This document shows positions 1 to 38,485 of a stretch of DNA of 38,485 bases, one piece after another. Made by a program: the position numbers and the translations under genes. This DNA comes from a virus: positions 1 to 38,485 of the IMG/VR virus record IMGVR_UViG_3300045988_113345; one strand, given 5' to 3'. The first letter of the stretch is position 1. Each line of letters begins with the position of its first letter. The notes below the pieces were generated by a model. The model ran no database searches. It worked only from the letters and a program-made list of their open reading frames with translations, and was not told the origin of the DNA.

Positions 1-55
1 GGTCAGTATCTCTCTGACCAGCTGTTTTCTGTACCATTGCTTGCCGGATGATGTC
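1..55. repeat. Terminal overlap, identical to 38431-38485 (closure of a circular sequence)
   Basis: The first 55 nt and last 55 nt of the window are identical base for base. A minus-strand ORF reads in frame through the join. Confidence 0.95.
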
Positions 56-9275: not shown

Positions 9276-9298
9276 AATGGTGAAAAGAGGTGATAAAA

Positions 9299-9757
9299 TT
9301 GGAAACAAAAGATGTTTTGAAAGCTTTAAGAAAGTCGAATGGCTTTACAACTATGCAGGATTTTTGCAAAGCATCTGGCATTAGTTTTAGTACTTATCAA
9401 AACTATGAAACTGGTAAAAGAATACCAACTGCGGATATGTTAATCAAACTCGCCGACTTTTACGGTGTAACAACGGACTACTTACTCGGTAGAGAGCCAG
9501 CCCCAGACCCGTTTGCAGACCTGAATCTCAACAAGGAATCAGAAACGAATGTCATTGATAAGTATATGAGCTTGCCGCCAAATATCCGTGCTTGTCTGAT
9601 GGATGTCTTGCTCCAGCTTGCTGACGCAGCAAAGCAGCGGCAAAACAACGCACAGCCGGAAGACGATACGCAGTGCAGTAAATTGTCCATCTCAACGACG
9701 CTTGGAACGATTGAGAACGAAATTGAGAAGATGGCTATGGCAAAAGGCGGAGCATAA
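9299..9757 (+). CDS. XRE-family HTH transcriptional regulator (repressor candidate)
   Basis: 152 aa from TTG 9299 (GTG 9290 is also possible). SD AGAGGTGA. HTH FCKASGISFSTYQNYETGKRIPTADMLIKLADFYGVTTDYLLGR, plus a ~80-aa C-terminal domain of unknown type. Confidence 0.8.
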   Translation: METKDVLKALRKSNGFTTMQDFCKASGISFSTYQNYETGKRIPTADMLIKLADFYGVTTDYLLGREPAPDPFADLNLNKESETNVIDKYMSLPPNIRACLMDVLLQLADAAKQRQNNAQPEDDTQCSKLSISTTLGTIENEIEKMAMAKGGA

Positions 9758-9826
9758 TGCTCACAAAAGCCTTGAAAAAATGAGTGTGTCCGGACAGCAC
9801 TAAAAAAATCGCCGGAGCAAAAAACG

Positions 9827-9858
9827 GAGCCGTAAAAAAATCTTACGGCTCTTTTTTT
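9827..9858 (+). terminator. Intrinsic terminator
   Basis: GAGCCGTAA / TTACGGCTC 9-bp stem, 7-nt loop, T7 tail. Confidence 0.8.
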
Positions 9859-9922
9859 GTTTGTAAAATTATACAAAACGTATCTTATTTTTTGTGCATC
9901 TATACAAATTGCGTAAAAGCGA

Positions 9923-9951
9923 TTGACATTATACGCAAACTGTGTTATTAT
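9923..9951 (+). promoter_or_regulatory. Promoter of the second XRE regulator
   Basis: TTGACA (9923-9928), 17-nt spacer ending in TGTGT, TATTAT (9946-9951). Confidence 0.65.
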
Positions 9952-9975
9952 AGGATACAGAGAGGAGGTGATATT

Positions 9976-10332
9976 ATGGCATGGTTTAATGCTCTCAAAT
10001 CACTAAGACGTGACACCGGTTACACCGCCATTGAAACAGCAAAAAAGCTGGGGCTGCCGTATACAACTTATGTCAGCTACGAGCAAGGCAAACGGGAACC
10101 AAGCATCAACTGCCTGATTAAACTTGCTAACTACTTTGATGTGCCTCTGGATACATTGCTTGACCGGAACGACGAGGTAAGCGGCGATGACGAAGAAGAA
10201 CCATCATTTTCAGAAATGTATGGTCGACTGTCGGCGGAAAAAAAACGCAAAATTGACAAATCGTTAAAAAGCCTCATGGAAATGTTTGATGGGCTAAAAG
10301 ACGAAGAAGAAGAAGAAGAAGAAGAAAACTAA
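9976..10332 (+). CDS. XRE-family HTH transcriptional regulator with poly-Glu tail
   Basis: 118 aa from ATG 9976 (SD GGAGGTGA). HTH AIETAKKLGLPYTTYVSYEQGKREPSINCLIKLANYFDVPLDTLL. C-terminus DEEEEEEEEN. Confidence 0.8.
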   Translation: MAWFNALKSLRRDTGYTAIETAKKLGLPYTTYVSYEQGKREPSINCLIKLANYFDVPLDTLLDRNDEVSGDDEEEPSFSEMYGRLSAEKKRKIDKSLKSLMEMFDGLKDEEEEEEEEN

Positions 10333-10501: not shown

Positions 10502-11338
10502 TTATGCAGCTTCCTGTCTGAATTCTACAGGAGATAGGCCATTCAGCTTAAGTTTGATGCGTTTGTTGTTGTACCATTCTATGTATTCATGAAGTTCTTC
10601 AATGAAATGCTCGACAGAATGAAATTCCTGCAAATAGAGAAGCTCTGTTTTCAGCAAGCCGAAGAAGTTCTCGGCACAGGCATTGTCAAGACAATTCCCC
10701 TTTCGGGACATACTCTGCCGGATGCCTTTCTCTTTCAGCATTTTCAGATAGTGCTTGTGTTGATACTGCCAGCCTTGGTCTGAATGAAGAATCAGATTTG
10801 TGTTGTCCGGTATTTTTGAAAATGCTTTCTCAAGCATATCCGTTACCTGATTCAAATTCGGATGACGGCTTAAATTGTATGAAATCACTTCGCCATTATA
10901 TAGATCAATGATTGGTGACAGATACAGCTTTATTCCAAACAAAGCAAATTCAGTAACATCCGTTACCCACTTCTGATTTGGCTGATCTGCTTTGAAATTC
11001 CGTTTCAGAAGATTTGGTGCGATTCTGCCGACATTACCCTTGTATGAGTGATACTTGTGCATACGAACACGGCAAAATATGCCCATTTTACGCATCAGTT
11101 TCTGTACAGTCTTGTGATTGATCACAAACTTCTTCTTCAATTCTTTTGTAATTCTCCGATATCCGTAACGCCCTTTGCTTTCCTCATAAATGCGGCGTAT
11201 TTCAGTTTTGATTTCAGCATATCGATCTGGCTTTGGATGATCAAATTGCTTGCTGTAATAGTAATAGGTACTGCGGGGAATATCGGCAATCTCAATGAGC
11301 AGTCCTATTTTATGTTCATGCCTCAGTTCCCATATCAC
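10502..11338 (-). CDS. IS3-family transposase OrfB (DDE/rve catalytic part), expressed as an OrfAB fusion
   Basis: 278-aa ORF in the -1 frame relative to orfA. That frame is open back to the slippery site at 11392. Typical IS3 features: IGLLIEI..., WVTDVTEF, LHSDQGWQY, NACAENFF, LNGLSPVEFR. Confidence 0.9.
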   Translation of the reverse strand: MIWELRHEHKIGLLIEIADIPRSTYYYYSKQFDHPKPDRYAEIKTEIRRIYEESKGRYGYRRITKELKKKFVINHKTVQKLMRKMGIFCRVRMHKYHSYKGNVGRIAPNLLKRNFKADQPNQKWVTDVTEFALFGIKLYLSPIIDLYNGEVISYNLSRHPNLNQVTDMLEKAFSKIPDNTNLILHSDQGWQYQHKHYLKMLKEKGIRQSMSRKGNCLDNACAENFFGLLKTELLYLQEFHSVEHFIEELHEYIEWYNNKRIKLKLNGLSPVEFRQEAA

Positions 11339-11676
11339 TTGTGCTTTTTCTCTTGCCGTACCCGCTCGGCAACCAAGGCATTCAATTTTTTTAAGTATGC
11401 ATTCTCCGCACGAAGACGCTGTACTTCTGCAATCAGATCTTCTTCTTTCTTAATTTTCGGAGGTCGCCCTGTGGATTTCCTTCCTCTGCGTTCTATGTAA
11501 AGTCCCTCCGCTCCTTCTTCAAGATAGATTCGTTCCCATGCTGCTACTCTATCATGATCGCGTATGTCAAATTGACGTGCAGTTTCACGATAGCTTAACT
11601 TTTCTCTATGCATTGTTTCCACTACTTTGATTTTGAATTCCGGTGTGTATCTTTTGTTCGGCTGTCCTTTTGGCAT
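11335..11676 (-). CDS. IS3-family transposase OrfA (HTH + leucine zipper)
   Basis: 113 aa. PNKRYTPEFKIKVVE...LSYRETARQFDI... and a C-terminal heptad region AEVQRLRAENAYLKKLNALV. Confidence 0.9.
   Translation of the reverse strand: MPKGQPNKRYTPEFKIKVVETMHREKLSYRETARQFDIRDHDRVAAWERIYLEEGAEGLYIERRGRKSTGRPPKIKKEEDLIAEVQRLRAENAYLKKLNALVAERVRQEKKHK
11386..11392 (-). other. Programmed -1 ribosomal frameshift heptamer A AAA AAA
   Basis: orfA reads TTA AAA AAA TTG. Sliding back 1 nt gives AAA AAA ATT GAA..., which runs without a stop into the orfB frame. Confidence 0.75.
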
Positions 11677-11754: not shown

Positions 11755-11776
11755 AACCTCTGAGGGGCTATTTTTT
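11755..11776. terminator. Right half of the IS-disrupted bidirectional terminator
   Basis: AAC (target duplication) + CTCTGAGGGGCT + A + TTTTTT. The rep stop codon is at 11775-11777. Confidence 0.7.
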
Positions 11777-12833
11777 AATATAGGTTGTATGCTGCAGGCT
11801 GGAAAGCATCGCGTTCGAGCATTTTTAAAAAATAAGCAAATCTGTTTTTTATAGGTTTGTTTTCCGCTGCAACATTAAGTGCAGCATATTTTTCACGGAG
11901 ATAAAATTGCTTACCATACAACTCGTTTTTTGTTAGCTTGTCTTTTGGTATGTCGATACGGACAAGTACACGGGCGATTTGCTCCATCTCAGCTTTGTTA
12001 AACTCATAATTGCACCCCTCGGCAAGCGTAGCAAGCCTCTCTGAGCCATAAGTGATTGTCCAGTCAATTCCATCTCGGTCTTCATAAAGCGGCTCTATGG
12101 GGCTGCCAGTGACGTTCTGGGGCGTTTTGAGTATAAATTGTATGCCGGATACTTTGCGACCACGCCGCAGGGCTACATAATCAAAATCAATGTCGGTTTT
12201 TTGGGATAACTCTTTTTGACACTTTTTTAATACCATGGTACTAAAACGCTTGTACTCACTGTATGTGTCCGCCGTGCAGCAGAGCATTTTTTTTAGTTCG
12301 CCAAGCGGTATCGTCCACGCCCCTCGAAAGCGGTTACTCTCTAAATACAAATACAAGATGTAACTGTATCTGGATGTTAAATTGACTACATTTTTAAGAC
12401 GGTATCTCAAATAGCCGATACTCTCAATATTAAAGATGTACTCCATCGCCTCTGGCGAGCATGCAAGTTTGATTGTCCAAAGCCCATCGTCCCCCTGCGT
12501 ACACTCAGCACACGAAAAAAGGGCTATTTTAGTAAATTTGTTTGGTTTGTCAGGGTCTTGGATAGTAACAACCTTAAAAAGGTTGTCAATCCGGTCAGAT
12601 AAATCCTTGTTTTTTATTTGCGTAACGCCCAGCAGCGACTCCAACTCACCCTTATCAAACGTCACACACCGCTCCTCTAGGTTGTGACTATTGATTTTTG
12701 ACAAGTACGCATCCAGTATTTTAAACTCTGCAAGCGTCATTTTAGTTTCGGATAGTGATTGCAGGGGGTTTGACTTTTGTACTAAAAAATTGCAATTGCC
12801 AGAAATTTGTGGTAGTGTTGTTCTTTTTGGCAT
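11775..12833 (-). CDS. Rep_3-type (RepB-like) theta-replication initiator protein
   Basis: 352 aa from ATG 12833 (SD GAGGTGA). Winged-helix pattern MTLAEFKILDAYLSKI..., LTSRYSYILYLYLESNRFRG..IPLGELKKML, YSEYKRFSTMVLKKCQKEL...DIDFDYVALRRGRKVSGIQFILK. Iterons lie immediately upstream. Confidence 0.85.
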   Translation of the reverse strand: MPKRTTLPQISGNCNFLVQKSNPLQSLSETKMTLAEFKILDAYLSKINSHNLEERCVTFDKGELESLLGVTQIKNKDLSDRIDNLFKVVTIQDPDKPNKFTKIALFSCAECTQGDDGLWTIKLACSPEAMEYIFNIESIGYLRYRLKNVVNLTSRYSYILYLYLESNRFRGAWTIPLGELKKMLCCTADTYSEYKRFSTMVLKKCQKELSQKTDIDFDYVALRRGRKVSGIQFILKTPQNVTGSPIEPLYEDRDGIDWTITYGSERLATLAEGCNYEFNKAEMEQIARVLVRIDIPKDKLTKNELYGKQFYLREKYAALNVAAENKPIKNRFAYFLKMLERDAFQPAAYNLY

Positions 12834-12851
12834 GATTATCACCTCATGCTT

Positions 12852-13295: not shown

Positions 13296-14498
13296 TTATA
13301 GCTTTTCGTCTATGTTTGCCACGTGTTTCAGAATTTGTTGCAGCGTGGATTCTTCGCTATCTGGTTCAGGCGTTGGCGTTGGCTCTGGTTCAGTTGGTTG
13401 CGTTGCTTTTGTGAACCCGTTCAGACCAGCATTTTTGATGATTGTAGGGTAATCTATGTAGCATTCATCTAAATCAACGTCCCCGTTAATACCGCTGATC
13501 GTTCCGCATCCCTTTTGCCAGATGCCATAATTGCCGGAATAACCGCATTCGCTGCTATAATCCGCACACCAAACTGTATACCGATTTCGCACCGATTCAG
13601 TGACATAATTTTCAAGGTAAAAGGTAGAGCAATACAAACCGGCATAATAGCCAGCCTGCTCCAATGTGCTGCAAAACGCTTCAACCATTTCGCTACAAAC
13701 CTGTTTTCCAAGAGCAAATTGCTTCTTTTCTTCCAAATCTAAATAAATTGGATATGCAAACTGCTTACCCTGTAGAACTTGCAAGCAGACACTTGCTTCC
13801 TGCCTTGCCTCTGCTGCACTCGTGGCATAACTATACCAAAACGCACCGCAGGGGATGCCGCTTTTCTGACAACCAGCATAATTCTCTTCAAAATAATCAT
13901 CAACCTGATTCTTCAAGATCTTTCCGAATCCGGCACGAATCAGAGCAAATGAAACTTTTCCAGACGCTTTTACTTTTACCCAATCAATTTTCTGCTGGCA
14001 GTATGATACATCAATCCCATAGAGGATATTTTTTGCAGATGTCAAACCAAAATACTTGTAAAAATCCTCTGTAACTGTGCCGTTTCCCTTTGTTTCATCT
14101 CCCAACCAGCGGTATCCTGTCCGCACATCCAGATGTGTGTACTGATAGGCTGCTGTAATGTTGGCAATACCGCCAAAGCCTAAATCCTGAGCCTTGCAGC
14201 ATACCGTTTTGCTGCTGATCGGCTGCCCGTCCTGCCCGTAACAGCAGACATCCGCAGCAGTGCCTTTTGTGTGCTGACCGCTGCTTGTACCGCCTACAGC
14301 CTTGTCATGCTCTGGGCAGCGATAACCGCTTGTCACAATGATTTTGCTACAGTTCAGGGCGGTGTAAAGCCGCTCTAACTTGTCTATTAGACCGCTGTCT
14401 ATTAAAATATCGTGCGATTTACCGCACTGGCATTTAAACTCTTGCACGTTAAAATGTGCTGACAGTTGGGTTTTGTCGTCAAATTTATACGTTGACAT
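13296..14498 (-). CDS. Two-domain endolysin: M15-type peptidase + GH25 muramidase
   Basis: 400 aa. N-terminal SGYRCPEHDKAVGGTSSGQHTKGTAADV (Zn D-Ala-D-Ala peptidase H..G.A.D motif). Central YGIDVSYCQQKIDWVKVKASGKVSFALIRAG (GH25). Pro/Glu/Thr linker near the C-terminus. Confidence 0.9.
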   Translation of the reverse strand: MSTYKFDDKTQLSAHFNVQEFKCQCGKSHDILIDSGLIDKLERLYTALNCSKIIVTSGYRCPEHDKAVGGTSSGQHTKGTAADVCCYGQDGQPISSKTVCCKAQDLGFGGIANITAAYQYTHLDVRTGYRWLGDETKGNGTVTEDFYKYFGLTSAKNILYGIDVSYCQQKIDWVKVKASGKVSFALIRAGFGKILKNQVDDYFEENYAGCQKSGIPCGAFWYSYATSAAEARQEASVCLQVLQGKQFAYPIYLDLEEKKQFALGKQVCSEMVEAFCSTLEQAGYYAGLYCSTFYLENYVTESVRNRYTVWCADYSSECGYSGNYGIWQKGCGTISGINGDVDLDECYIDYPTIIKNAGLNGFTKATQPTEPEPTPTPEPDSEESTLQQILKHVANIDEKL

Positions 14499-14612
14499 AG
14501 TTGATACACTCCTTTTCTTGTTTGAAATTGGTTAAAATACACATATTGCGTATATTCGTATTGTACATTCCTACAAATTGAGTAAAAGAACAACTAAAAT
14601 GATAAAAAAGCA

Positions 14613-14641
14613 TTGACAAATGTACCAAAATGGTATATACT
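14613..14641 (+). promoter_or_regulatory. Promoter of the opposite-strand cassette
   Basis: TTGACA (14613-14618), 17 nt, TATACT (14636-14641). The spacer contains the palindrome TACCA-AAA-TGGTA (14623-14635). Confidence 0.7.
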
Positions 14642-14721
14642 ATAATTACAGTTAAGGACAAGACAAAGTCCAAACAACATAGACCGCCCCACAGAGGGCA
14701 GAAAGAACGAGGGTATTTATT

Positions 14722-14922
14722 ATGGCTAACACAGTGAACTACAACGGAGCAACCTACAACTGGGACATCGTAAGCAGCTATTTTGATTTTGTCGTATCGG
14801 ACACAATCGACTGGAACGGTGATGAAACCAACGAAGAAGTACTTGCAAAGTACATTGCAGCAGACCCAGAGTTTGCAGACCTGTTTGAGTACGACTTTGT
14901 ACCGCTTGACACAATAGCGTAA
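14722..14922 (+). CDS. Very acidic 66-aa protein (anti-defence / DNA-mimic candidate)
   Basis: ATG 14722. By my count 9 Asp + 5 Glu against 1 Lys and no Arg. No family recognised. Confidence 0.6.
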   Translation: MANTVNYNGATYNWDIVSSYFDFVVSDTIDWNGDETNEEVLAKYIAADPEFADLFEYDFVPLDTIA

Positions 14923-14960
14923 ACAAAAACCTGCTGACCCATCGGCGTGACGGGGAGAAA

Positions 14961-15179
14961 GTGAGAATCAATATGAAAAACCCGAAAAACTACTTTGAAA
15001 AGAATGGATTTATCTACGGCGATAGCTACAAGTACAGCTTTGGCGAATGGGAACACAGAGTGCAGAAGTTTGATTCCTACGAGGACGCTGAAAAGTGGTT
15101 GTATACAGAGGAATACGATTTTCGCACACGGGAACTGATTTCCAAGACCGAAGCAAGAAAGTACGGTTGCAACGAATAA
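14961..15179 (+). CDS. Hypothetical small protein (68-72 aa)
   Basis: ORF with GTG 14961 or ATG 14973 as start, GGGGAGAAAG upstream. Rich in aromatic and acidic residues (YEDAEKWLYTEEYDF). Confidence 0.55.
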   Translation: MRINMKNPKNYFEKNGFIYGDSYKYSFGEWEHRVQKFDSYEDAEKWLYTEEYDFRTRELISKTEARKYGCNE

Positions 15180-15263
15180 TCATTGTAATAAAAATCGGCA
15201 CACTGAAACGGGGAGAAATCCCCGTAAAGTGTGCATAATCTGTTATAAAAAGGAAGAATATTG

Positions 15264-15590
15264 ATGAAAAAAATTGAATTTGATATGTTTATACGCCTTT
15301 ACGGTGAAGCTAAAAGCTACAATAATCTTGATATGTACATCATGGAACGAGGCTGGCAGGAATGGATGAACGACTTAGAACCTGGCACTGTTGCGGAAGT
15401 CCTAAAAAACATCTACAGCATTGCAAAAGACGGATTTCCGGAGCTTTTAAACCATTATGAAACACTCCGGAAAGTGTCTAATAGATTTGGAATACCATAC
15501 AGCACCTTGCAGCGTTGGAAATCCGGAATAACAGATGTTCCGGAATACATATTGCTCATGATGGCATATATTACAATTATTAACCAATAA
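15264..15590 (+). CDS. 108-aa protein with C-terminal HTH-like segment (Aca-like regulator candidate)
   Basis: ATG 15264, SD AAGGAAG 7 nt upstream. C-terminal LRKVSNRFGIPYSTLQRWKSGITDVPEYILLMM resembles the IP.rT...W..G...P..Y HTH seen in Firmicutes mobile elements. Confidence 0.6.
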   Translation: MKKIEFDMFIRLYGEAKSYNNLDMYIMERGWQEWMNDLEPGTVAEVLKNIYSIAKDGFPELLNHYETLRKVSNRFGIPYSTLQRWKSGITDVPEYILLMMAYITIINQ

Positions 15591-15610
15591 TTTTGTATAT
15601 TTGCACAAAC

Positions 15611-15645
15611 CGCTTGGCAGTTTAACCGCTGCCAGGCGTTTTTTT
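15611..15645 (+). terminator. Intrinsic terminator of the plus-strand cassette
   Basis: CGCTTGGCAG / CTGCCAGGCG 10-bp stem (one G-U), 8-nt loop, T7. The T-run abuts the holin stop codon. Confidence 0.8.
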
Positions 15646-16054
15646 ATTTGTCCTTTTTTTGCAGCAAATCAATCGCTTTTCGGAGTGGTTCAGGGAACTG
15701 TACACCCATCAAACCCACGTTTTCAACCATTGAAATCAATTCATTTACCATAAATGCGATACAAACGCCATCTCTTACATATGACGTATGCAGGACAGCG
15801 TCCACCTGCACGGCAACCACAACAAGTGCAAGCGTTGCAACCTTACGGCACAAACCTTTCCAGCCGACTTTAGATTGTAAGCCGCCTGATTCTGTTTTCG
15901 GGGACTTTTTGAAAATCCCTGCACAAGCTAACCCCATCAGGTAATCAATCGCCATAAAAACCAGTAAGGCTCTGATTGCTGCATCCCAGCCGCCAAACAG
16001 CCCCGCAATCAGACCGCCGGCCGTTCCGGCTGCTGCACAAATCCATTCTTTCAT
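15644..16054 (-). CDS. Holin (Phage_holin_4_1 / LL-H type)
   Basis: 136 aa. LFGGWDAAIRALLVFMAIDYLMGLACAGIFKKS...GGLQSKVGWKGLCRKVATLALVVVAVQVD matches the family signature, with multiple transmembrane segments. Confidence 0.85.
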   Translation of the reverse strand: MKEWICAAAGTAGGLIAGLFGGWDAAIRALLVFMAIDYLMGLACAGIFKKSPKTESGGLQSKVGWKGLCRKVATLALVVVAVQVDAVLHTSYVRDGVCIAFMVNELISMVENVGLMGVQFPEPLRKAIDLLQKKDK

Positions 16055-16263
16055 TCAGCCGCCTCCTCTTCACTATCACCGTCGATGCTGACGTCCGGCT
16101 CTTCTTCTGTTTCTTCCACCGGCGGCTCTCCATCTGGCGTAATTGTGACCGGCACATCTTCCAAATCTTTGCCGCCGCCTAAAAACTCCTGCAACGACAT
16201 CAAAACGCTATCATCATCGCCAAGTTTCATGCTAGGCTGATAATCCGCATATTTTATGTACAT
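16051..16263 (-). CDS. Small acidic protein between tail fibre and holin
   Basis: 70 aa from ATG 16263 (SD AAAGGAGGG). ATGA overlap with the holin start. C-terminus is Glu/Asp/Pro-rich. Confidence 0.55.
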   Translation of the reverse strand: MYIKYADYQPSMKLGDDDSVLMSLQEFLGGGKDLEDVPVTITPDGEPPVEETEEEPDVSIDGDSEEEAAE

Positions 16264-16265
16264 AT

Positions 16266-18725
16266 TTATCCCTCCTTTGTAAGACCCGATACTGTCCAAC
16301 CGTTTGTAACCAATGTTGCAACAGCATTATCGGATGCAGCCGTTCTTTTCATTCCGGTTGCTGTAAACGTACCTGATTTGACGCCACTTGCTGCAAAATT
16401 TATCAAATTTGCGTCCATATCGGCTGACGTGACAGCCGTTTTTGACACAGAAACTGTTTTTGGATATTTTGTCCCAGAGTAAACGCCTGTAATGCTTGAA
16501 CAGCCGTTTAAGTTGAGCACGCTTGCAATCTTACCACCTAAATCGGATAAATCTCCTGTAATGTTTGTGCAGCCGCCCAAACGCAGCGTGCTTGTAATTT
16601 TACCGCCTAAATCAGACAAATCCATCTTGTTTGTAGTATCGTTTATGATTGATAAGGCTGTAATACTGTCAAAATCCATGCAAATCAGCCCGTTATCTGA
16701 TTTTACATCAAACGTGCAGTTGCTCCCTTGTGCTTTCTGCCCGCCGTACTGCCACACAACATTTGTACCAGTTGCGGTTGCAGTAAATGTTCCTTTTCCA
16801 TGTCGGAATTGGATACTGCCTGACAGTGGCAAGACCTGCCGCCCATTTACAAATACCATGCCATTATTTGCATTCGTGTAAGGGAAATTACTTTCGTTAC
16901 TCTGTGTAATCCGAACCATACTATTTGCACCAGAATAAATGCCTTTTGTAGTACTATTGGTACAGCTGTAAATTTTTGCGTCACCTTGTCCGGTTACATA
17001 AACAGCATACTGTGCATTGCCTTTAAATTCCGTACCAGAACAGCAAATGTTCGATATATCAGAGACACCAACTGCATTTTTAGAGTTGGCATTCACCACA
17101 CAATCAGAAATCCGAACCGTTCCATTATACTGTGCAAGGATTGCGGTTGTGGATGTGTTTGCAGTATCGCTGTCGGTGTTGTCAATGGTGACTTTGGACA
17201 GATGCAAAAATCCATTTTCACAGACAAAATTCCCTTGAATGGTTGTTGTCGCTGCGGCATTGCCATAAATCCGAACATCTCGACCAAGCAGGGTTAATGT
17301 TTTGTTTGGAATAAGATAAGTTCCAGCCGCCAAATAGATTATGGCTTTTTTTGCGTATTGTGTAAACCGTAAAGCCATTCCGAGTGTTTGCAGGGCTTTT
17401 GCTGTGGTGCTGCCGTCTTGTGCGTCTGATCCAGCAGTAGCATTAACGTAAACTGCTTTAGTACTGCAAGTATCATCAAAGTTGGAATGTAGCACAGTCA
17501 ACTCACCAATGACATTTTGTAAAGATTGAATGTGCTGCAAGTCGGCTGGCGAAAGGCTGTTTAAAACTGCCATGTTGTTATGAGAATGATGTGTGTTTTT
17601 GATTACGTTCCACTTTGTAGCGTCAATATCGTCAAGTACGCTCTTGTTATCGTGCGTGTGTGCAGAGGCTTTCAGTGTATCCACATCCGGTGACAAATCT
17701 GGCACAAACAACCCGTCCGGCACAATATTCAGAGCGTTGTGAGATACCGTGCTGATGGACGGCAATACCTGCCATGTTTGCTTGCCATATACAGTTACCA
17801 GTTTTGCGGTGCAATACATTGCATGTGCACTGCCGTCCCATCCGGGTGTATAATCGCCCCACAGTGTAGCCTCTGCGTTTGTGCCGTTTTTGACGGTCGC
17901 TGTGGTTGTGCCGTTTTTGTCGGTGATTGTAATGGTTGCTCCAGCGTCCGTTTCGGTAACTGTAGCAATCGGGGAATAGCCGTTCATGCCGTCTTTTCCA
18001 TTGATTCCGTTTGCTCCATCCTTACCGTTTACGCCGTCTTTGCCAGGTGTTCCAGCGTCGCCTTTTTCACCTTTTTCGCCACGTTCTCCCTTTTCACCGG
18101 GTGCTCCAGGCTCGCCCTGGTCACCTTTTTCACCTTTTGCTCCAGGCTTTCCTTGCTTTCCAGGGTCACCTTTTTCCCCAGTTTCTCCCTTGTCGCCTTT
18201 ATCTCCCTTTGCAGGCTGCTCGGAATCCTGATAAGCACCCGTTGCAGCGTCGTACAACCACCACGTGCCGTTCTGGATAATCGGAGCTTTTGCGATCAGC
18301 TGCTCCGCCTGTGCAAGAATGGACTGCATCTCACGCAGGGCTTTGTCAATTGCATCAATACCGCCGTGGTACTGCTCCAAGATAGAGCCACGAACGATCA
18401 TTGGGGTCATTTCGTACTTGATAACGACAGTGTCATCCTTTTGACCGACAATTTCTGGCAGCAACTCACCGGACACCGCTGTAAAGTCCTCTGTAATCGT
18501 CCATGTTAAGATAATCTGGCTTTCCGTGACTTCTTTTTCCAGGTTCTGCATAACGAGACCACCGCCGCTGTTGACAGCTCGCAGCGTAAACAGGCAATCA
18601 GATAAATCAGTCTGATGGTAGTATCGGTCAACGGCAATCTGGATTTTATCGGCGTTTTTTTCGCCGGCAATGAGCAGATGCTTGATGTTTGCCGTGTCGA
18701 TGTATTTTTGATTTGCTGTTAGCAT
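16266..18725 (-). CDS. Tail fibre / receptor-binding protein: BppU-like N-terminus, collagen-like stalk, beta-helix, LRR-like C-terminal repeats
   Basis: 819 aa from ATG 18725 (SD AAGGGAGA). 25 G-X-Y triplets. A Thr/Asn/Gly-rich repetitive segment (…VRISDCVVNANSKNAVGVSD…AVYVTGQGDAKIYSC…). Two 23-aa DLSDLGGKI...GC..ITG units. Confidence 0.8.
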   Translation of the reverse strand: MLTANQKYIDTANIKHLLIAGEKNADKIQIAVDRYYHQTDLSDCLFTLRAVNSGGGLVMQNLEKEVTESQIILTWTITEDFTAVSGELLPEIVGQKDDTVVIKYEMTPMIVRGSILEQYHGGIDAIDKALREMQSILAQAEQLIAKAPIIQNGTWWLYDAATGAYQDSEQPAKGDKGDKGETGEKGDPGKQGKPGAKGEKGDQGEPGAPGEKGERGEKGEKGDAGTPGKDGVNGKDGANGINGKDGMNGYSPIATVTETDAGATITITDKNGTTTATVKNGTNAEATLWGDYTPGWDGSAHAMYCTAKLVTVYGKQTWQVLPSISTVSHNALNIVPDGLFVPDLSPDVDTLKASAHTHDNKSVLDDIDATKWNVIKNTHHSHNNMAVLNSLSPADLQHIQSLQNVIGELTVLHSNFDDTCSTKAVYVNATAGSDAQDGSTTAKALQTLGMALRFTQYAKKAIIYLAAGTYLIPNKTLTLLGRDVRIYGNAAATTTIQGNFVCENGFLHLSKVTIDNTDSDTANTSTTAILAQYNGTVRISDCVVNANSKNAVGVSDISNICCSGTEFKGNAQYAVYVTGQGDAKIYSCTNSTTKGIYSGANSMVRITQSNESNFPYTNANNGMVFVNGRQVLPLSGSIQFRHGKGTFTATATGTNVVWQYGGQKAQGSNCTFDVKSDNGLICMDFDSITALSIINDTTNKMDLSDLGGKITSTLRLGGCTNITGDLSDLGGKIASVLNLNGCSSITGVYSGTKYPKTVSVSKTAVTSADMDANLINFAASGVKSGTFTATGMKRTAASDNAVATLVTNGWTVSGLTKEG
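16485..16622. repeat. Tandem 69-bp duplication encoding two 23-aa LRR-like units
   Basis: DLSDLGGKITSTLRLGGCTNITG / DLSDLGGKIASVLNLNGCSSITG. The DNA copies are clearly alignable (…ACC(A/G)CCTAAATC(G/A)GA(T/C)AAATC). Confidence 0.8.
17979..18206. repeat. Collagen-like G-X-Y coding repeat (25 triplets)
   Basis: GDKGDKGETGEKGDPGKQGKPGAKGEKGDQGEPGAPGEKGERGEKGEKGDAGTPGKDGVNGKDGANGINGKDGMNG. Confidence 0.9.
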
Positions 18726-38316: not shown

Positions 38317-38485
38317 CCGGCAGCACCTCTTCCAACGCGTCTAAACCGCCATATATCCGCAATTGCAACGCCTCAATCACAACAAAGTTGATATATGTGC
38401 CAATGTCGACAAAATCAACATATGTATCTGGGTCAGTATCTCTCTGACCAGCTGTTTTCTGTACCATTGCTTGCCGGATGATGTC
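38309..38485 (-). CDS. 3' part of the junction-spanning 98-aa hypothetical protein
   Basis: In frame with 175-1 through the 55-bp overlap. Ends ...ALQLRIYGGLDALEEVLPGE-TAA at 38311-38309, overlapping the GTG start of the next gene. Confidence 0.6.
   Translation of the reverse strand, partial: DIIRQAMVQKTAGQRDTDPDTYVDFVDIGTYINFVVIEALQLRIYGGLDALEEVLPGE

What the first reader, a model, noticed from the sequence alone, without database searches (positions are those of the whole stretch)
14613..15645. Opposite-strand three-gene cassette with acr-aca-like architecture inserted between holin and endolysin
This is a self-contained plus-strand unit inside the otherwise uniformly minus-strand late arm. 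It runs from a TTGACA-17-TATACT promoter, with a TACCA-AAA-TGGTA palindrome in the spacer, through three small ORFs to a strong terminator. The DNA is visibly more AT-rich than its flanks.

- ORF1 (66 aa) has 14 acidic residues and 1 basic residue.
- ORF2 (~68 aa) is unassigned.
- ORF3 (108 aa) ends in an HTH-like segment.

Established knowledge: anti-CRISPR and other anti-defence loci typically consist of a strong promoter, one or more small and often acidic DNA-mimic proteins, and a terminal HTH autorepressor (Aca) that binds inverted repeats in the promoter. In Firmicutes phages they often sit next to the lysis genes.

Inference: this is an anti-defence (anti-CRISPR or anti-restriction) operon, or possibly a lysogenic-conversion moron. 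None of the three proteins matches a family I recognise.
Basis: partly seen in the sequence, partly recalled or inferred. Interest (0 to 1): 0.75.

Follow-up and report, generated by a model that had tools for sequence, protein, structure and literature searches.

The report
HTH-regulated accessory cassette splitting lysis genes
A small self-regulated three-gene operon sits between a gut phage's holin and endolysin genes; it is built like an anti-CRISPR (acr-aca) locus, its regulator belongs to a family not among the named Aca families tested here, and its targets are unknown.

Summary
A near-consensus sigma-70 promoter (14613-14641) has TACCA-AAA-TGGTA in its spacer. It drives three plus-strand genes (66, 68 and 108 aa) to a strong terminator, between a minus-strand endolysin and holin. 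The AT-richness is weak.

ORF3 has a conserved N-terminal helical domain and a C-terminal XRE-like HTH. Its family (phrog_25567) has about 370 clusters across Bacillota phages. Of 21 ORF3 lineages, 11 carry a perfect inverted repeat in the spacer of a promoter near the ORF3 gene. The repeat sequence changes with the recognition helix, so ORF3 is very probably the cassette's autorepressor.

The cargo varies under one promoter: ORF1, a pseudogenised ORF1, two other acidic proteins, with or without ORF2.

In Streptococcus phages the ORF3 cassettes carry gene families that Song et al. 2022 tested as Acr candidates. These were negative against three Cas9s, and they include the ORF2 family. Two cassettes lie beside homologues of validated Acrs (an Aca11-like domain fused to an AcrIIA31-like or AcrIIA24-like domain).

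ORF3 is unlike Aca11, Aca12, Aca13 and every solved Aca. No cargo protein matches a known inhibitor.

Verdict: an acr-aca-like anti-defence cassette with a candidate new Aca-type regulator. The architecture is supported; the function is unproven.

The parts
14613..14641 (+). Sigma-70-type promoter: TTGACA, 17-nt spacer, TATACT
   Evidence: 11/12 match. It is conserved base for base in all close relatives whatever the cargo.
14620..14638 (.). Putative ORF3 operator. The core inverted repeat is TACCA-AAA-TGGTA (14623-14635); it extends to ATGTACCA / TGGTATAT. It occupies the spacer and abuts the -10 element.
   Evidence: The site is unique in the genome. A relative, L050, has a perfect 8-3-8 version. 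Analogous repeats occur in 11 of 21 ORF3 lineages.
14684..14701 (+). Small GC hairpin in the 5' leader (GCCC...GGGC), followed by the RBS GAGGG
   Evidence: leader z -2.4. The hairpin and RBS travel with ORF1 to a different promoter in L043.
14722..14922 (+). ORF1: 66 aa, net charge about -13, variable cargo gene of unknown function
   Evidence: It is replaced by other acidic proteins or pseudogenised in relatives. In L043/L044 it is the first gene of the early operon.
14973..15179 (+). ORF2: 68 aa, small alpha/beta protein. It belongs to the phrog_34334 / PH15 ORF57 / Song 'orf7' family.
15198..15234 (+). Very stable hairpin between ORF2 and ORF3, with no U-tract after it
   Evidence: -28.6 kcal/mol, z -7.1. 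No Rfam family reaches threshold.
15264..15590 (+). ORF3: 108 aa. A conserved N-terminal helical domain (ERGWQEWM motif) plus a C-terminal XRE-like HTH (helices 68-75 and 79-86). It is the predicted autorepressor.
15611..15648 (+). Intrinsic terminator (11-bp stem plus T-run). The T-run overlaps the stop codon of the convergent holin gene.
   Evidence: The reverse strand forms a weaker hairpin with no U-tract.

Best explanation
This is an autonomously transcribed, self-repressed accessory operon of the acr-aca type.

Proposed mechanism:
- Host sigma-70 RNA polymerase starts at about 14648 from a near-consensus promoter.
- It transcribes two small cargo genes, ORF1 (extremely acidic) and ORF2 (a small alpha/beta protein), and then ORF3.
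- ORF3 is inferred to dimerise and use its C-terminal XRE-like HTH to bind the inverted repeat between the -35 and -10 elements. This shuts the promoter down once enough product has been made.
- The cargo proteins are most likely inhibitors of host defence systems. Their targets are unknown and are probably not type II-A Cas9.
- ORF3 belongs to a Bacillota-wide regulator family that is not Aca11-13 or any structurally solved Aca. It would therefore be a new Aca-like family.

Shown here: the anatomy, the family relationships, the cargo swapping, and the enrichment and covariation of the operator.
Inferred: DNA binding and repression by ORF3, and an anti-defence role for the cargo.
For: 1. Real operon parts: promoter, three RBS-preceded ORFs with homologues, and a terminator.

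2. ORF3 is an HTH protein.
- Pfam HTH_psq scores above its gathering threshold.
- The AF2 model has pLDDT 90, with helices 68-75 and 79-86.
- Its C-terminus resembles the P2 C repressor and XRE regulators.

3. The regulator is constant and the cargo is variable. Phages with more than 80% identical ORF3 and the same promoter carry any of these:
- ORF1+ORF2
- ORF1 alone
- pseudo-ORF1+ORF2
- an unrelated 69-aa acidic protein
- a 127-aa acidic protein plus ORF2

4. Operator.
- Of the 21 ORF3 lineages (clustered at 70% identity), 11 have a perfect inverted repeat of at least 5 bp in the spacer of a promoter within 1.8 kb upstream to 0.6 kb downstream of the ORF3 start.
- 9 of 29 such promoter-like sites have arms of at least 6 bp. 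Shuffled spacers give a mean of 0.88 and a maximum of 4 in 500 shuffles; other promoter-like sites in the same loci give 2 of 32.
- The repeat sequence differs by lineage in step with the recognition helix.
- The P0014-type loci have three such promoters.
- The operator occurs once in this genome, so it does not belong to the cI regulon.

5. Link to anti-defence loci. Streptococcus ORF3 cassettes carry the orf2, orf3, orf4 and orf7 families of Song et al. 2022, which were neighbours of Aca11 and validated Acrs. In PH15 and L025 the cassettes lie 0.4-1 kb from an Aca11-like domain fused to an AcrIIA31-like or AcrIIA24-like domain.

6. The cargo in the first slot is always strongly acidic, with net charge -13 to -16.

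7. In L043/L044 ORF1 is the first early gene, under the lysogeny-switch promoter. This fits a function needed immediately on entry.

8. Published Aca systems show the same layout: an inverted repeat in the promoter, and one regulator controlling several neighbouring operons (PMC13551039, PMC12282945).
Against: - No cargo protein has detectable similarity to any known Acr, Ard, Ocr or other anti-defence protein, by sequence (ORF1, ORF2 and relatives' cargo) or by fold (ORF2 only).
- The ORF2-family member orf7, and the orf3 and orf4 families, were negative against three Cas9 orthologues (PMC8934645).
- The window's own inverted repeat is short (5-3-5). In most close relatives it is imperfect, and several lineages have only half-site-like motifs.
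- Binding was not tested.
- The host and its defence systems are unknown.
- Small acidic proteins and autoregulated HTH genes are common in phage accessory regions, whatever their function.
Confidence: 0.6

Rival explanations
1. The cassette is a prophage-borne protective or addiction module: a toxin-antitoxin, abortive-infection or superinfection-exclusion system. ORF3 would be an HTH antitoxin and autorepressor of the HigA/MqsA type, and ORF2 (or ORF1) the toxin or effector. It would be expressed from the resident phage-plasmid.
For: - ORF3's HTH motif (IPxxTLQxWxxG) resembles YiaG/HigA2/MqsA-type XRE domains. The best PDB sequence match is 2ppx, E 0.046.
- The gene order is small protein first, then an HTH with a C-terminal DNA-binding domain.
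- There is a palindrome in the promoter.
- The cassette shares its strand with the two XRE lysogeny genes.
- An ORF2-family gene lies immediately upstream of an ORF3-family gene in at least five lineages.
Against: - ORF3 persists without ORF2 (L048, L004, L045) and ORF2 homologues occur without ORF3 (L121-L126). The pair is therefore not obligate.
- ORF1 is pseudogenised in L052/L053 with the rest intact.
- The ORF2 model has no toxin-like fold match.
- There are no PADLOC hits.
- The partner genes change freely, which is not expected for a cognate toxin-antitoxin pair.
Confidence: 0.13
2. The cassette is a generic moron (lysogenic-conversion or host-modulation genes) whose products act on host physiology rather than on defence systems. 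ORF3 would simply be its local repressor.
For: - It sits in the typical moron position, at the junction of the lysis and lysogeny or replication modules.
- It has its own sigma-70 promoter and terminator.
- Its GC content is slightly lower than the genome's.
- Three gene families found in the Streptococcus ORF3 cassettes, among them the ORF2 family (orf7), were inactive against Cas9 (PMC8934645).
Against: - The first-slot cargo proteins are small and strongly acidic, and Pfam, NCBIfam, PHROGs and PADLOC find no functional family in any cargo protein.
- The same gene families cluster with validated Acr genes and Aca11 in Streptococcus.
- In a related phage ORF1 is the very first early gene. That suits a role in infection rather than in lysogenic conversion.
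Confidence: 0.17
3. The cassette is a lysis-timing switch. ORF3 would regulate endolysin or holin expression, and convergent or antisense transcription across the cassette would gate lysis.
For: - The cassette splits the holin and endolysin genes.
- The -35 element of a weak minus-strand promoter-like site (14628-14599) overlaps the left arm of the repeat.
- The terminator works poorly in the reverse direction, so late transcripts probably run antisense through the cassette.
Against: - In other lineages the ORF3 cassette lies after the lysin, beside an integrase or recombinase, or near packaging genes. The repeat always sits in a promoter reading along the ORF3 strand, within or just upstream of the cassette.
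- The minus-strand promoter matches are only 9/12.
- The cargo genes vary while the lysis genes stay the same.
Confidence: 0.05

Closest known systems
acr-aca operons regulated by HTH Aca autorepressors (Aca1, Aca2, Aca10, Aca11, Aca12)
   Same: - A strong promoter, small and often acidic cargo genes, and a co-encoded HTH gene.
- An inverted repeat overlapping the promoter.
- A regulator that stays constant while the cargo is swapped.
- In the P0014-type relatives, several neighbouring promoters carry the same motif, as reported for Aca proteins (PMC13551039, PMC12282945).
   Different: - ORF3 shows no sequence similarity to Aca11, Aca12 or Aca13 or to any solved Aca.
- Its HTH is C-terminal, behind a highly conserved 60-residue helical domain with no fold match.
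- No validated Acr, or homologue of one, lies inside this operon.
Streptococcus acr loci of Song et al. 2022 (AcrIIA24-32 with aca11-13; PMC8934645)
   Same: - The gene pool is shared. ORF2 belongs to the orf7 family (hhalign 95%, E 4e-8).
- Relatives' cargo belongs to the orf3, orf4 and orf2 families.
- PH15 and L025 have an Aca11-like domain fused to an AcrIIA31-like or AcrIIA24-like domain next to the ORF3-type cassette.
   Different: - Those loci are organised around Aca11, Aca12 or Aca13, not ORF3.
- The shared families were the candidates that tested negative.
- The window phage is not a Streptococcus phage. The closest relatives found in bacterial genomes are in Ruminococcus, Oscillospiraceae and Lachnospiraceae, at 40% identity or less.
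AcrIIA1 of Listeria phages (bifunctional HTH autorepressor and Cas9 inhibitor beside the lysin gene; own knowledge, not tested here)
   Same: - A two-domain HTH protein that anchors a variable anti-CRISPR locus next to the lysis genes of a Bacillota temperate phage.
   Different: - The domain order is reversed (HTH at the N-terminus in AcrIIA1).
- There is no sequence or fold similarity in the PDB searches, assuming that copy of the PDB includes the solved AcrIIA1 structure.
HigA2/MqsA/YiaG-type XRE antitoxins
   Same: - The C-terminal HTH carries an 'IP..TL..W..G' motif, and the partner gene lies upstream.
- There is a palindromic operator.
   Different: - There is no obligate partner and no toxin-like partner fold.
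- The N-terminal domain is unrelated, with no zinc ribbon.

Membership tests
acr-aca-type anti-defence operon (functional class) | Own strong promoter and terminator around small genes, transcribed independently of the neighbouring modules | tested here: met
acr-aca-type anti-defence operon (functional class) | A co-encoded DNA-binding (usually HTH) regulator gene | tested here: met
   HTH_psq scores 23.1 bits against a cut-off of 20.4. The AF2 model has a helix-turn-helix at residues 68-86. The XRE-like motif is conserved.
acr-aca-type anti-defence operon (functional class) | An inverted-repeat operator overlapping the operon promoter | tested here: met
   The window has a 5-3-5 repeat. Of 21 lineages, 11 have a perfect repeat of at least 5 bp in a nearby promoter spacer. 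9 of 29 promoter-like sites have arms of at least 6 bp, against a shuffle mean of 0.88 and a maximum of 4.
acr-aca-type anti-defence operon (functional class) | The regulator is conserved while the adjacent cargo genes vary between related elements | tested here: met
   Five cargo configurations occur under one promoter. Cargo also differs in distant lineages.
acr-aca-type anti-defence operon (functional class) | The regulator binds the repeat and represses the promoter | not testable with these tools
   This needs an EMSA or a reporter assay. The covariation of recognition helix and operator is only indirect support.
acr-aca-type anti-defence operon (functional class) | At least one cargo gene is, or is homologous to, an experimentally validated inhibitor | tested here: not met
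   ORF1 and ORF2 do not match AcrIIA4, AcrIIA5, AcrIIA24-32 or AcrIIC1, or any PDB chain. Validated-Acr homologues occur only next to the cassettes of distant relatives (PH15, L025).
Aca11 / Aca12 / Aca13 (Streptococcus) | Sequence homology to the reference proteins WP_009730540.1, WP_033585136.1 and WP_094140901.1 | tested here: not met
   A phmmer search with the three sequences against all six-frame ORFs of the window and 126 loci never hit an ORF3 homologue at E <= 1e-3.
Structurally solved Aca proteins | Sequence or fold similarity to a deposited Aca structure | tested here: not met
   The best hit of the profile search against PDB sequences has E 0.046, to a non-Aca XRE protein. Foldseek finds Aca7 (9lx1) only at E 5.8. 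Aca families without structures were not tested.
Type II toxin-antitoxin (HigBA/MqsRA-like) | An obligate cognate pair, with a toxin of recognisable fold | tested here: not met
   ORF3 occurs without ORF2 and ORF2 without ORF3. ORF2 has no toxin-like fold match. There are no PADLOC hits.
DNA-mimic anti-restriction proteins (Ocr, ArdA) | Homology to Ocr or ArdA, or a structure displaying a DNA-like array of carboxylates | tested here: inconclusive
   The composition fits (14 acidic and 1 basic residues, pI 4.05). ORF1 has no Pfam match at all and no PDB match.

The most novel reading that the evidence does not exclude
The ORF3 family (phrog_25567) is a previously unnamed, Bacillota-wide Aca-type regulator. 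Its invariant N-terminal domain (ERGWQEWM) does more than dimerise: it acts as an effector or sensor, as in the bifunctional AcrIIA1. Its cassettes mark a pool of inhibitors directed at defence systems other than Cas9. That pool would include the ORF1 family, the ORF2/orf7 family, and the orf3 and orf4 families that tested negative against Cas9.
Probability: 0.3. Interest if true: 0.7.

Novelty: new member of a known kind. Interest (0 to 1): 0.5.

Why it matters
Aca-type regulators are the main handle for finding anti-defence genes by guilt-by-association. Very few are known for phages of gut Clostridia.

If ORF3 is confirmed, it would give a marker family of about 370 clusters at 50% identity, together with a recognisable operator architecture. 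That would point to several uncharacterised small-protein families as candidate inhibitors: ORF1, ORF2/orf7, the 69-aa and 127-aa acidic proteins, and a 168-aa hyper-acidic protein.

It would also help explain why several Streptococcus 'Acr candidates' were inactive against Cas9. They may target other defence systems.

Tried and rejected
Searches that found nothing:
- DNA search of the region 13296-16300 (endolysin, cassette and holin) against GenBank phages: no match.
- Pfam, NCBIfam, PHROGs and PADLOC on ORF1, ORF2 and eight cargo or neighbour proteins from relatives: no functional family.
- PDB sequence searches with ORF1 and with the ORF2 and ORF3 profiles: nothing significant.
- Foldseek against the PDB with confident models of ORF3 (pLDDT 90) and ORF2 (pLDDT 87): no whole-fold match.
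- Foldseek against the viral library: both attempts failed with 'no such model'.
- Rfam on 14400-15800: nothing near the gathering score.

Ideas tested and dropped:
- ORF3 = Aca12. I suspected this because Aca12 is confined to Streptococcaceae phages and regulates several operons. The published 140-aa sequence has an N-terminal HTH and is unrelated.
- The 124-aa cargo family = AcrIIA3. Its only match in the phage collection is Javan178, a Streptococcus prophage, and no Listeria phage was hit. This is not a direct test, because I had no AcrIIA3 sequence.
- Javan273_0001 = AcrIIA20. The lengths differ (77 aa against 64 aa) and I had no AcrIIA20 sequence to compare.
- The 168-aa acidic protein = ArdA, and the ~260-aa 'DNPPFS' protein = a methyltransferase. 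Neither has Pfam or PDB support.
- The cI repressor controls the cassette. The operator occurs only once in the genome.
Full report
**Observation.**
- TTGACA (14613-14618), a 17-nt spacer and TATACT (14636-14641) form one of the best promoter matches in the region (11/12).
- The spacer contains TACCA-AAA-TGGTA (14623-14635). It extends to ATGTACCA / TGGTATAT, a 7/8 match.
- Three plus-strand ORFs follow, each with an RBS: ORF1 (14722-14922, 66 aa), ORF2 (14973-15179, 68 aa) and ORF3 (15264-15590, 108 aa).
- An 11-bp GC-rich hairpin followed by T7 ends the unit.
- ORF1 has 14 acidic residues and 1 basic residue, pI 4.05.
- The flanks are a Peptidase_M15 + GH25 endolysin and a Phage_holin_4_1 holin, both on the minus strand.
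- The claimed AT-richness is weak. The cassette is 40.6% GC against 45.5% for the genome, and 12% of equal-sized windows are as low or lower.

**Genome context.**
- The window is a complete circular assembly, with a 55-bp terminal repeat.
- Every substantial minus-strand ORF was read as a gene: a helicase, a primase-helicase, structural genes including a collagen-repeat tail fibre, the lysis genes and a Rep3 initiator. An IS3 element also lies on that strand.
- The only substantial plus-strand genes are two XRE regulators (9290-9757 and 9784-10332) and this cassette.
- No integrase was found among the ORFs scanned. With the Rep3 gene, this looks like a phage-plasmid.

**ORF3.**
- It matches phrog_25567 (9e-30, unknown function) and passes Pfam HTH_psq.
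- The AF2 model on 15 homologues is confident (pLDDT 90). It has seven helices, with a helix-turn-helix at 68-75 and 79-86.
- Only the last ~45 residues resemble known structures: the P2 C repressor, XRE regulators and Aca7. All these matches have E > 1.
- The best PDB sequence match is an XRE protein that shares the 'IP..TL..W..G' motif, E 0.046.
- The N-terminal 60 residues are the most conserved part of the family (F6, F9, L12, Y13, ERGWQ.WM) and match no fold.
- An exhaustive profile search finds 371 clusters at 50% identity (132 at E <= 1e-10). Most are stand-alone proteins of 105-125 aa.
- Full-length relatives occur in Streptococcus phages (PH15 ORF58, Javan242, Javan273). They also occur in genomes of Ruminococcus, Oscillospiraceae, Lachnospiraceae, Dorea, Enterococcus and Aerococcaceae.
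- No genome in the species-representative set carries a close copy, so the host is not pinned down.

**Constant regulator, variable cargo.** Phages whose ORF3 is more than 80% identical to the window's keep the same promoter and most of the 5' leader; its last ~20 bases, with the RBS, change with the first gene. Their cargo differs:

| Cargo | Loci |
|---|---|
| ORF1 + ORF2 | window, L047, L050, L051, L054, L055 |
| ORF1 only (a clean deletion fusing the 3' ends of ORF1 and ORF2) | L048 |
| ORF1 with a premature stop + ORF2 | L052, L053 |
| An unrelated 69-aa protein, net charge -14.5 | L004, L005, L045, L046 |
| A 127-aa protein, net charge -16, + ORF2 | L011 |

- ORF1 is rare, with three clusters in 5.8 billion proteins.
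- In L043/L044, ORF1 with its leader hairpin and RBS is the first gene of the early operon. There it is driven by a homologous promoter whose spacer carries the lysogeny-switch operator TACGCA-N4-TGCGTA instead.
- ORF2 is more widespread (29 clusters). An ORF2-family gene lies immediately upstream of an ORF3-family gene in at least five lineages.
- ORF2 also occurs without ORF3: beside an integrase, or before an HTH_17 protein and an integrase.

**Operator.** I located the ORF3 homologue in 57 sources (the window and 56 loci) and scanned from 1.8 kb upstream to 0.6 kb downstream of its start for near-consensus promoters. In most lineages the spacer holds an inverted repeat that ends at the -10 element. 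The sequence differs by lineage:

| Lineage | Repeat |
|---|---|
| L050 (window clade) | ATACACCA-aaa-TGGTGTAT |
| L012 | CACCCA-t-TGGGTG |
| L019 | ACCACC-gaata-GGTGGT |
| L021, L030 | ACCACCT-aga-AGGTGGT |
| L029 | ACCACGC-ata-GCGTGGT |
| L068 | CCACGCA-t-TGCGTGG |
| L064 | ATACCACACA-a-TGTGTGGTAT |
| L066 (Enterococcus) | ACCACATT-a-AATGTGGT |
| PH15 | AGCACGCA-a-TGCGTGCT |
| L032, L067 (Dorea) | ATAGTGCTCA-a-TGAGCACTAT |

- Of 21 lineages (clustered at 70% identity), 11 have a perfect repeat of at least 5 bp.
- 9 of 29 such promoter-like sites have arms of at least 6 bp. Shuffled spacers give a mean of 0.88 and a maximum of 4 in 500 shuffles. Other promoter-like sites in the same loci give 2 of 32.
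- Lineages with an 'IPYST.Q(R/K)W' recognition helix have '..CC(A)-N3-4-TGG..' sites. Those with 'IP.RT(L/V)E.W' have longer 'CCAC.CA' arms.
- The P0014-type loci have three such promoters: before a 148-aa gene, before the ORF3 homologue, and before a 168-aa protein of net charge -37.
- In the window the operator is unique, so it does not belong to the cI regulon.
- This is the layout published for Aca repressors, including control of several neighbouring operons (PMC13551039; PMC12282945).

**Link to real acr loci.** Supplementary Table S1 of Song et al. 2022 (PMC8934645) gives the sequences of Aca11, Aca12, Aca13, AcrIIA24-32 and 17 candidates that tested negative.
- None of the three Acas resembles ORF3.
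- Their orf7 (Javan169, adjacent to Aca11) belongs to the ORF2 family. The evidence is hhalign 95%, E 4e-8 against the ORF2 profile; BLASTP 7e-20 against PH15 ORF57; and phmmer 2.9e-5 directly against the window's ORF2.
- Their orf3, orf4 and orf2 families are the cargo or neighbours of the Streptococcus ORF3 cassettes. The 127-aa protein of L011 is weakly related to orf3.
- PH15 ORF60, about 0.4 kb downstream of the PH15 cassette, combines an Aca11-like domain (4e-14) with an AcrIIA31.1-like domain (9e-11).
- L025 has an Aca11-like domain (9e-8) fused to an AcrIIA24-like domain (4e-38) about 1 kb downstream of its cassette.
- ORF3-type cassettes therefore belong to the same accessory islands and gene pool as validated anti-CRISPR loci.
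- The shared families did not inhibit SpyCas9, St1Cas9 or St3Cas9 in E. coli (PMC8934645).

**Cargo function.**
- ORF2 gives a confident small alpha/beta model (pLDDT 87) with no structural neighbour.
- ORF1, ORF2 and the alternative cargo have no functional family match in Pfam, NCBIfam, PADLOC or the PDB.
- The function therefore remains inference from architecture, charge and neighbourhood.

**Other features.**
- A very stable hairpin (15198-15234, -28.6 kcal/mol, z -7.1) separates ORF2 from ORF3. It has no U-tract after it. It may lower ORF3 expression relative to the cargo.
- The terminator is effectively one-directional. Late transcripts leaving the holin gene probably read antisense through the cassette to reach the endolysin.
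- Only weak minus-strand promoters (9/12) lie upstream of the endolysin.

**Conclusion.** The best explanation is an ORF3-autorepressed anti-defence-type operon with swappable cargo (confidence about 0.6).
- That ORF3 is the operator-binding repressor I put at about 0.8.
- That the cargo is anti-defence I put at about 0.5.
- That it is specifically anti-CRISPR I put below 0.2.

The rivals are less well supported:
- A toxin-antitoxin or exclusion module (0.13) does not fit, because the pairing is not obligate.
- A moron unrelated to defence (0.17) remains possible.
- A lysis-timing device (0.05) does not fit, because the cassette's position varies between lineages.

The cassette is a new member of a known kind: a candidate new Aca-type family with an unusual domain order.

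Noticed in passing
window 1-55 and 38431-38485: There is a 55-bp exact terminal direct repeat. The window is therefore a complete, circularly assembled genome of about 38.43 kb.
   Followed up: yes
window 11775-12842 (-): A Rep3-family plasmid replication initiator (Rep3_N + Rep3_C) lies next to the endolysin. No integrase was found among the ORFs scanned. The element looks like a phage-plasmid. Relatives (L004, L043, L045, L050) have the same Rep3 gene.
   Followed up: partly
window 10502-11676 (-): An IS3-family insertion sequence (orfA with HTH_28/HTH_Tnp_1; orfB with rve) sits between the XRE lysogeny genes and Rep3. In relatives (L004, L043) the HTH_3 genes lie close to Rep3 with no transposase gene between them (L043 has one 152-aa zinc-ribbon gene there), so the IS looks like a recent insertion.
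   Followed up: partly
window 15198-15234 (+): An unusually stable hairpin lies between ORF2 and ORF3 (-28.6 kcal/mol, z -7.1). It has no U-tract and no Rfam match. It may attenuate or process the transcript and so lower regulator expression.
   Followed up: partly
L043 2780-3000 (and L044): The ORF1 homologue (91% identical) keeps its leader hairpin and RBS. It sits behind a promoter homologous to the window's, but the spacer carries TACGC-aaaata-GCGTA. A second copy, TACGCA-AAAA-TGCGTA, lies nearby in the cI-like switch region. This looks like operator swapping on a shared promoter scaffold.
   Followed up: partly
L004 4381-5178, L011 4381-5163, L050 3381-4199 (all minus strand); absent from the window: Close relatives carry an extra 260-272-aa gene (phrog_21498, unknown function) between the cassette and the holin. 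It contains a 'VVDNPPFS' motif reminiscent of N6-adenine methyltransferase motif IV. It has no Pfam or PDB support.
   Followed up: partly
L004 5593-5793 (-); compare window 16051-16299 (-): In relative L004 the small gene just upstream of the holin has a Tad2-like (anti-Thoeris) N-terminal domain match (PF11195, 4e-6, above the cut-off). The 82-aa ORF at the same position in the window has an acidic tail and no match.
   Followed up: partly
L002 (phage PH15) 4772-5140; L025 5369-6109: PH15 ORF60 is an unannotated fusion of an Aca11-like domain and an AcrIIA31-like domain. L025 encodes a fusion of an Aca11-like domain and an AcrIIA24-like domain. The PH15 gene is preceded by its own promoter containing a 9-bp inverted repeat.
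   Followed up: partly
window 13296-14720 (-) and 15591-16054 (-): It is unclear how the endolysin is transcribed. It is separated from the holin by 1.1 kb of opposite-strand genes, and only weak minus-strand promoter matches (9/12) lie upstream of it. Late read-through would produce antisense RNA to the whole cassette.
   Followed up: no
L007 4491-4997 (also L008, L009, L013, L014, L018): A 168-aa protein with 52 acidic residues (net charge -37) is driven by its own ORF3-type promoter, downstream of the ORF3 homologue. It matches no known family. It is a strong candidate DNA mimic in the P0014-type loci.
   Followed up: partly
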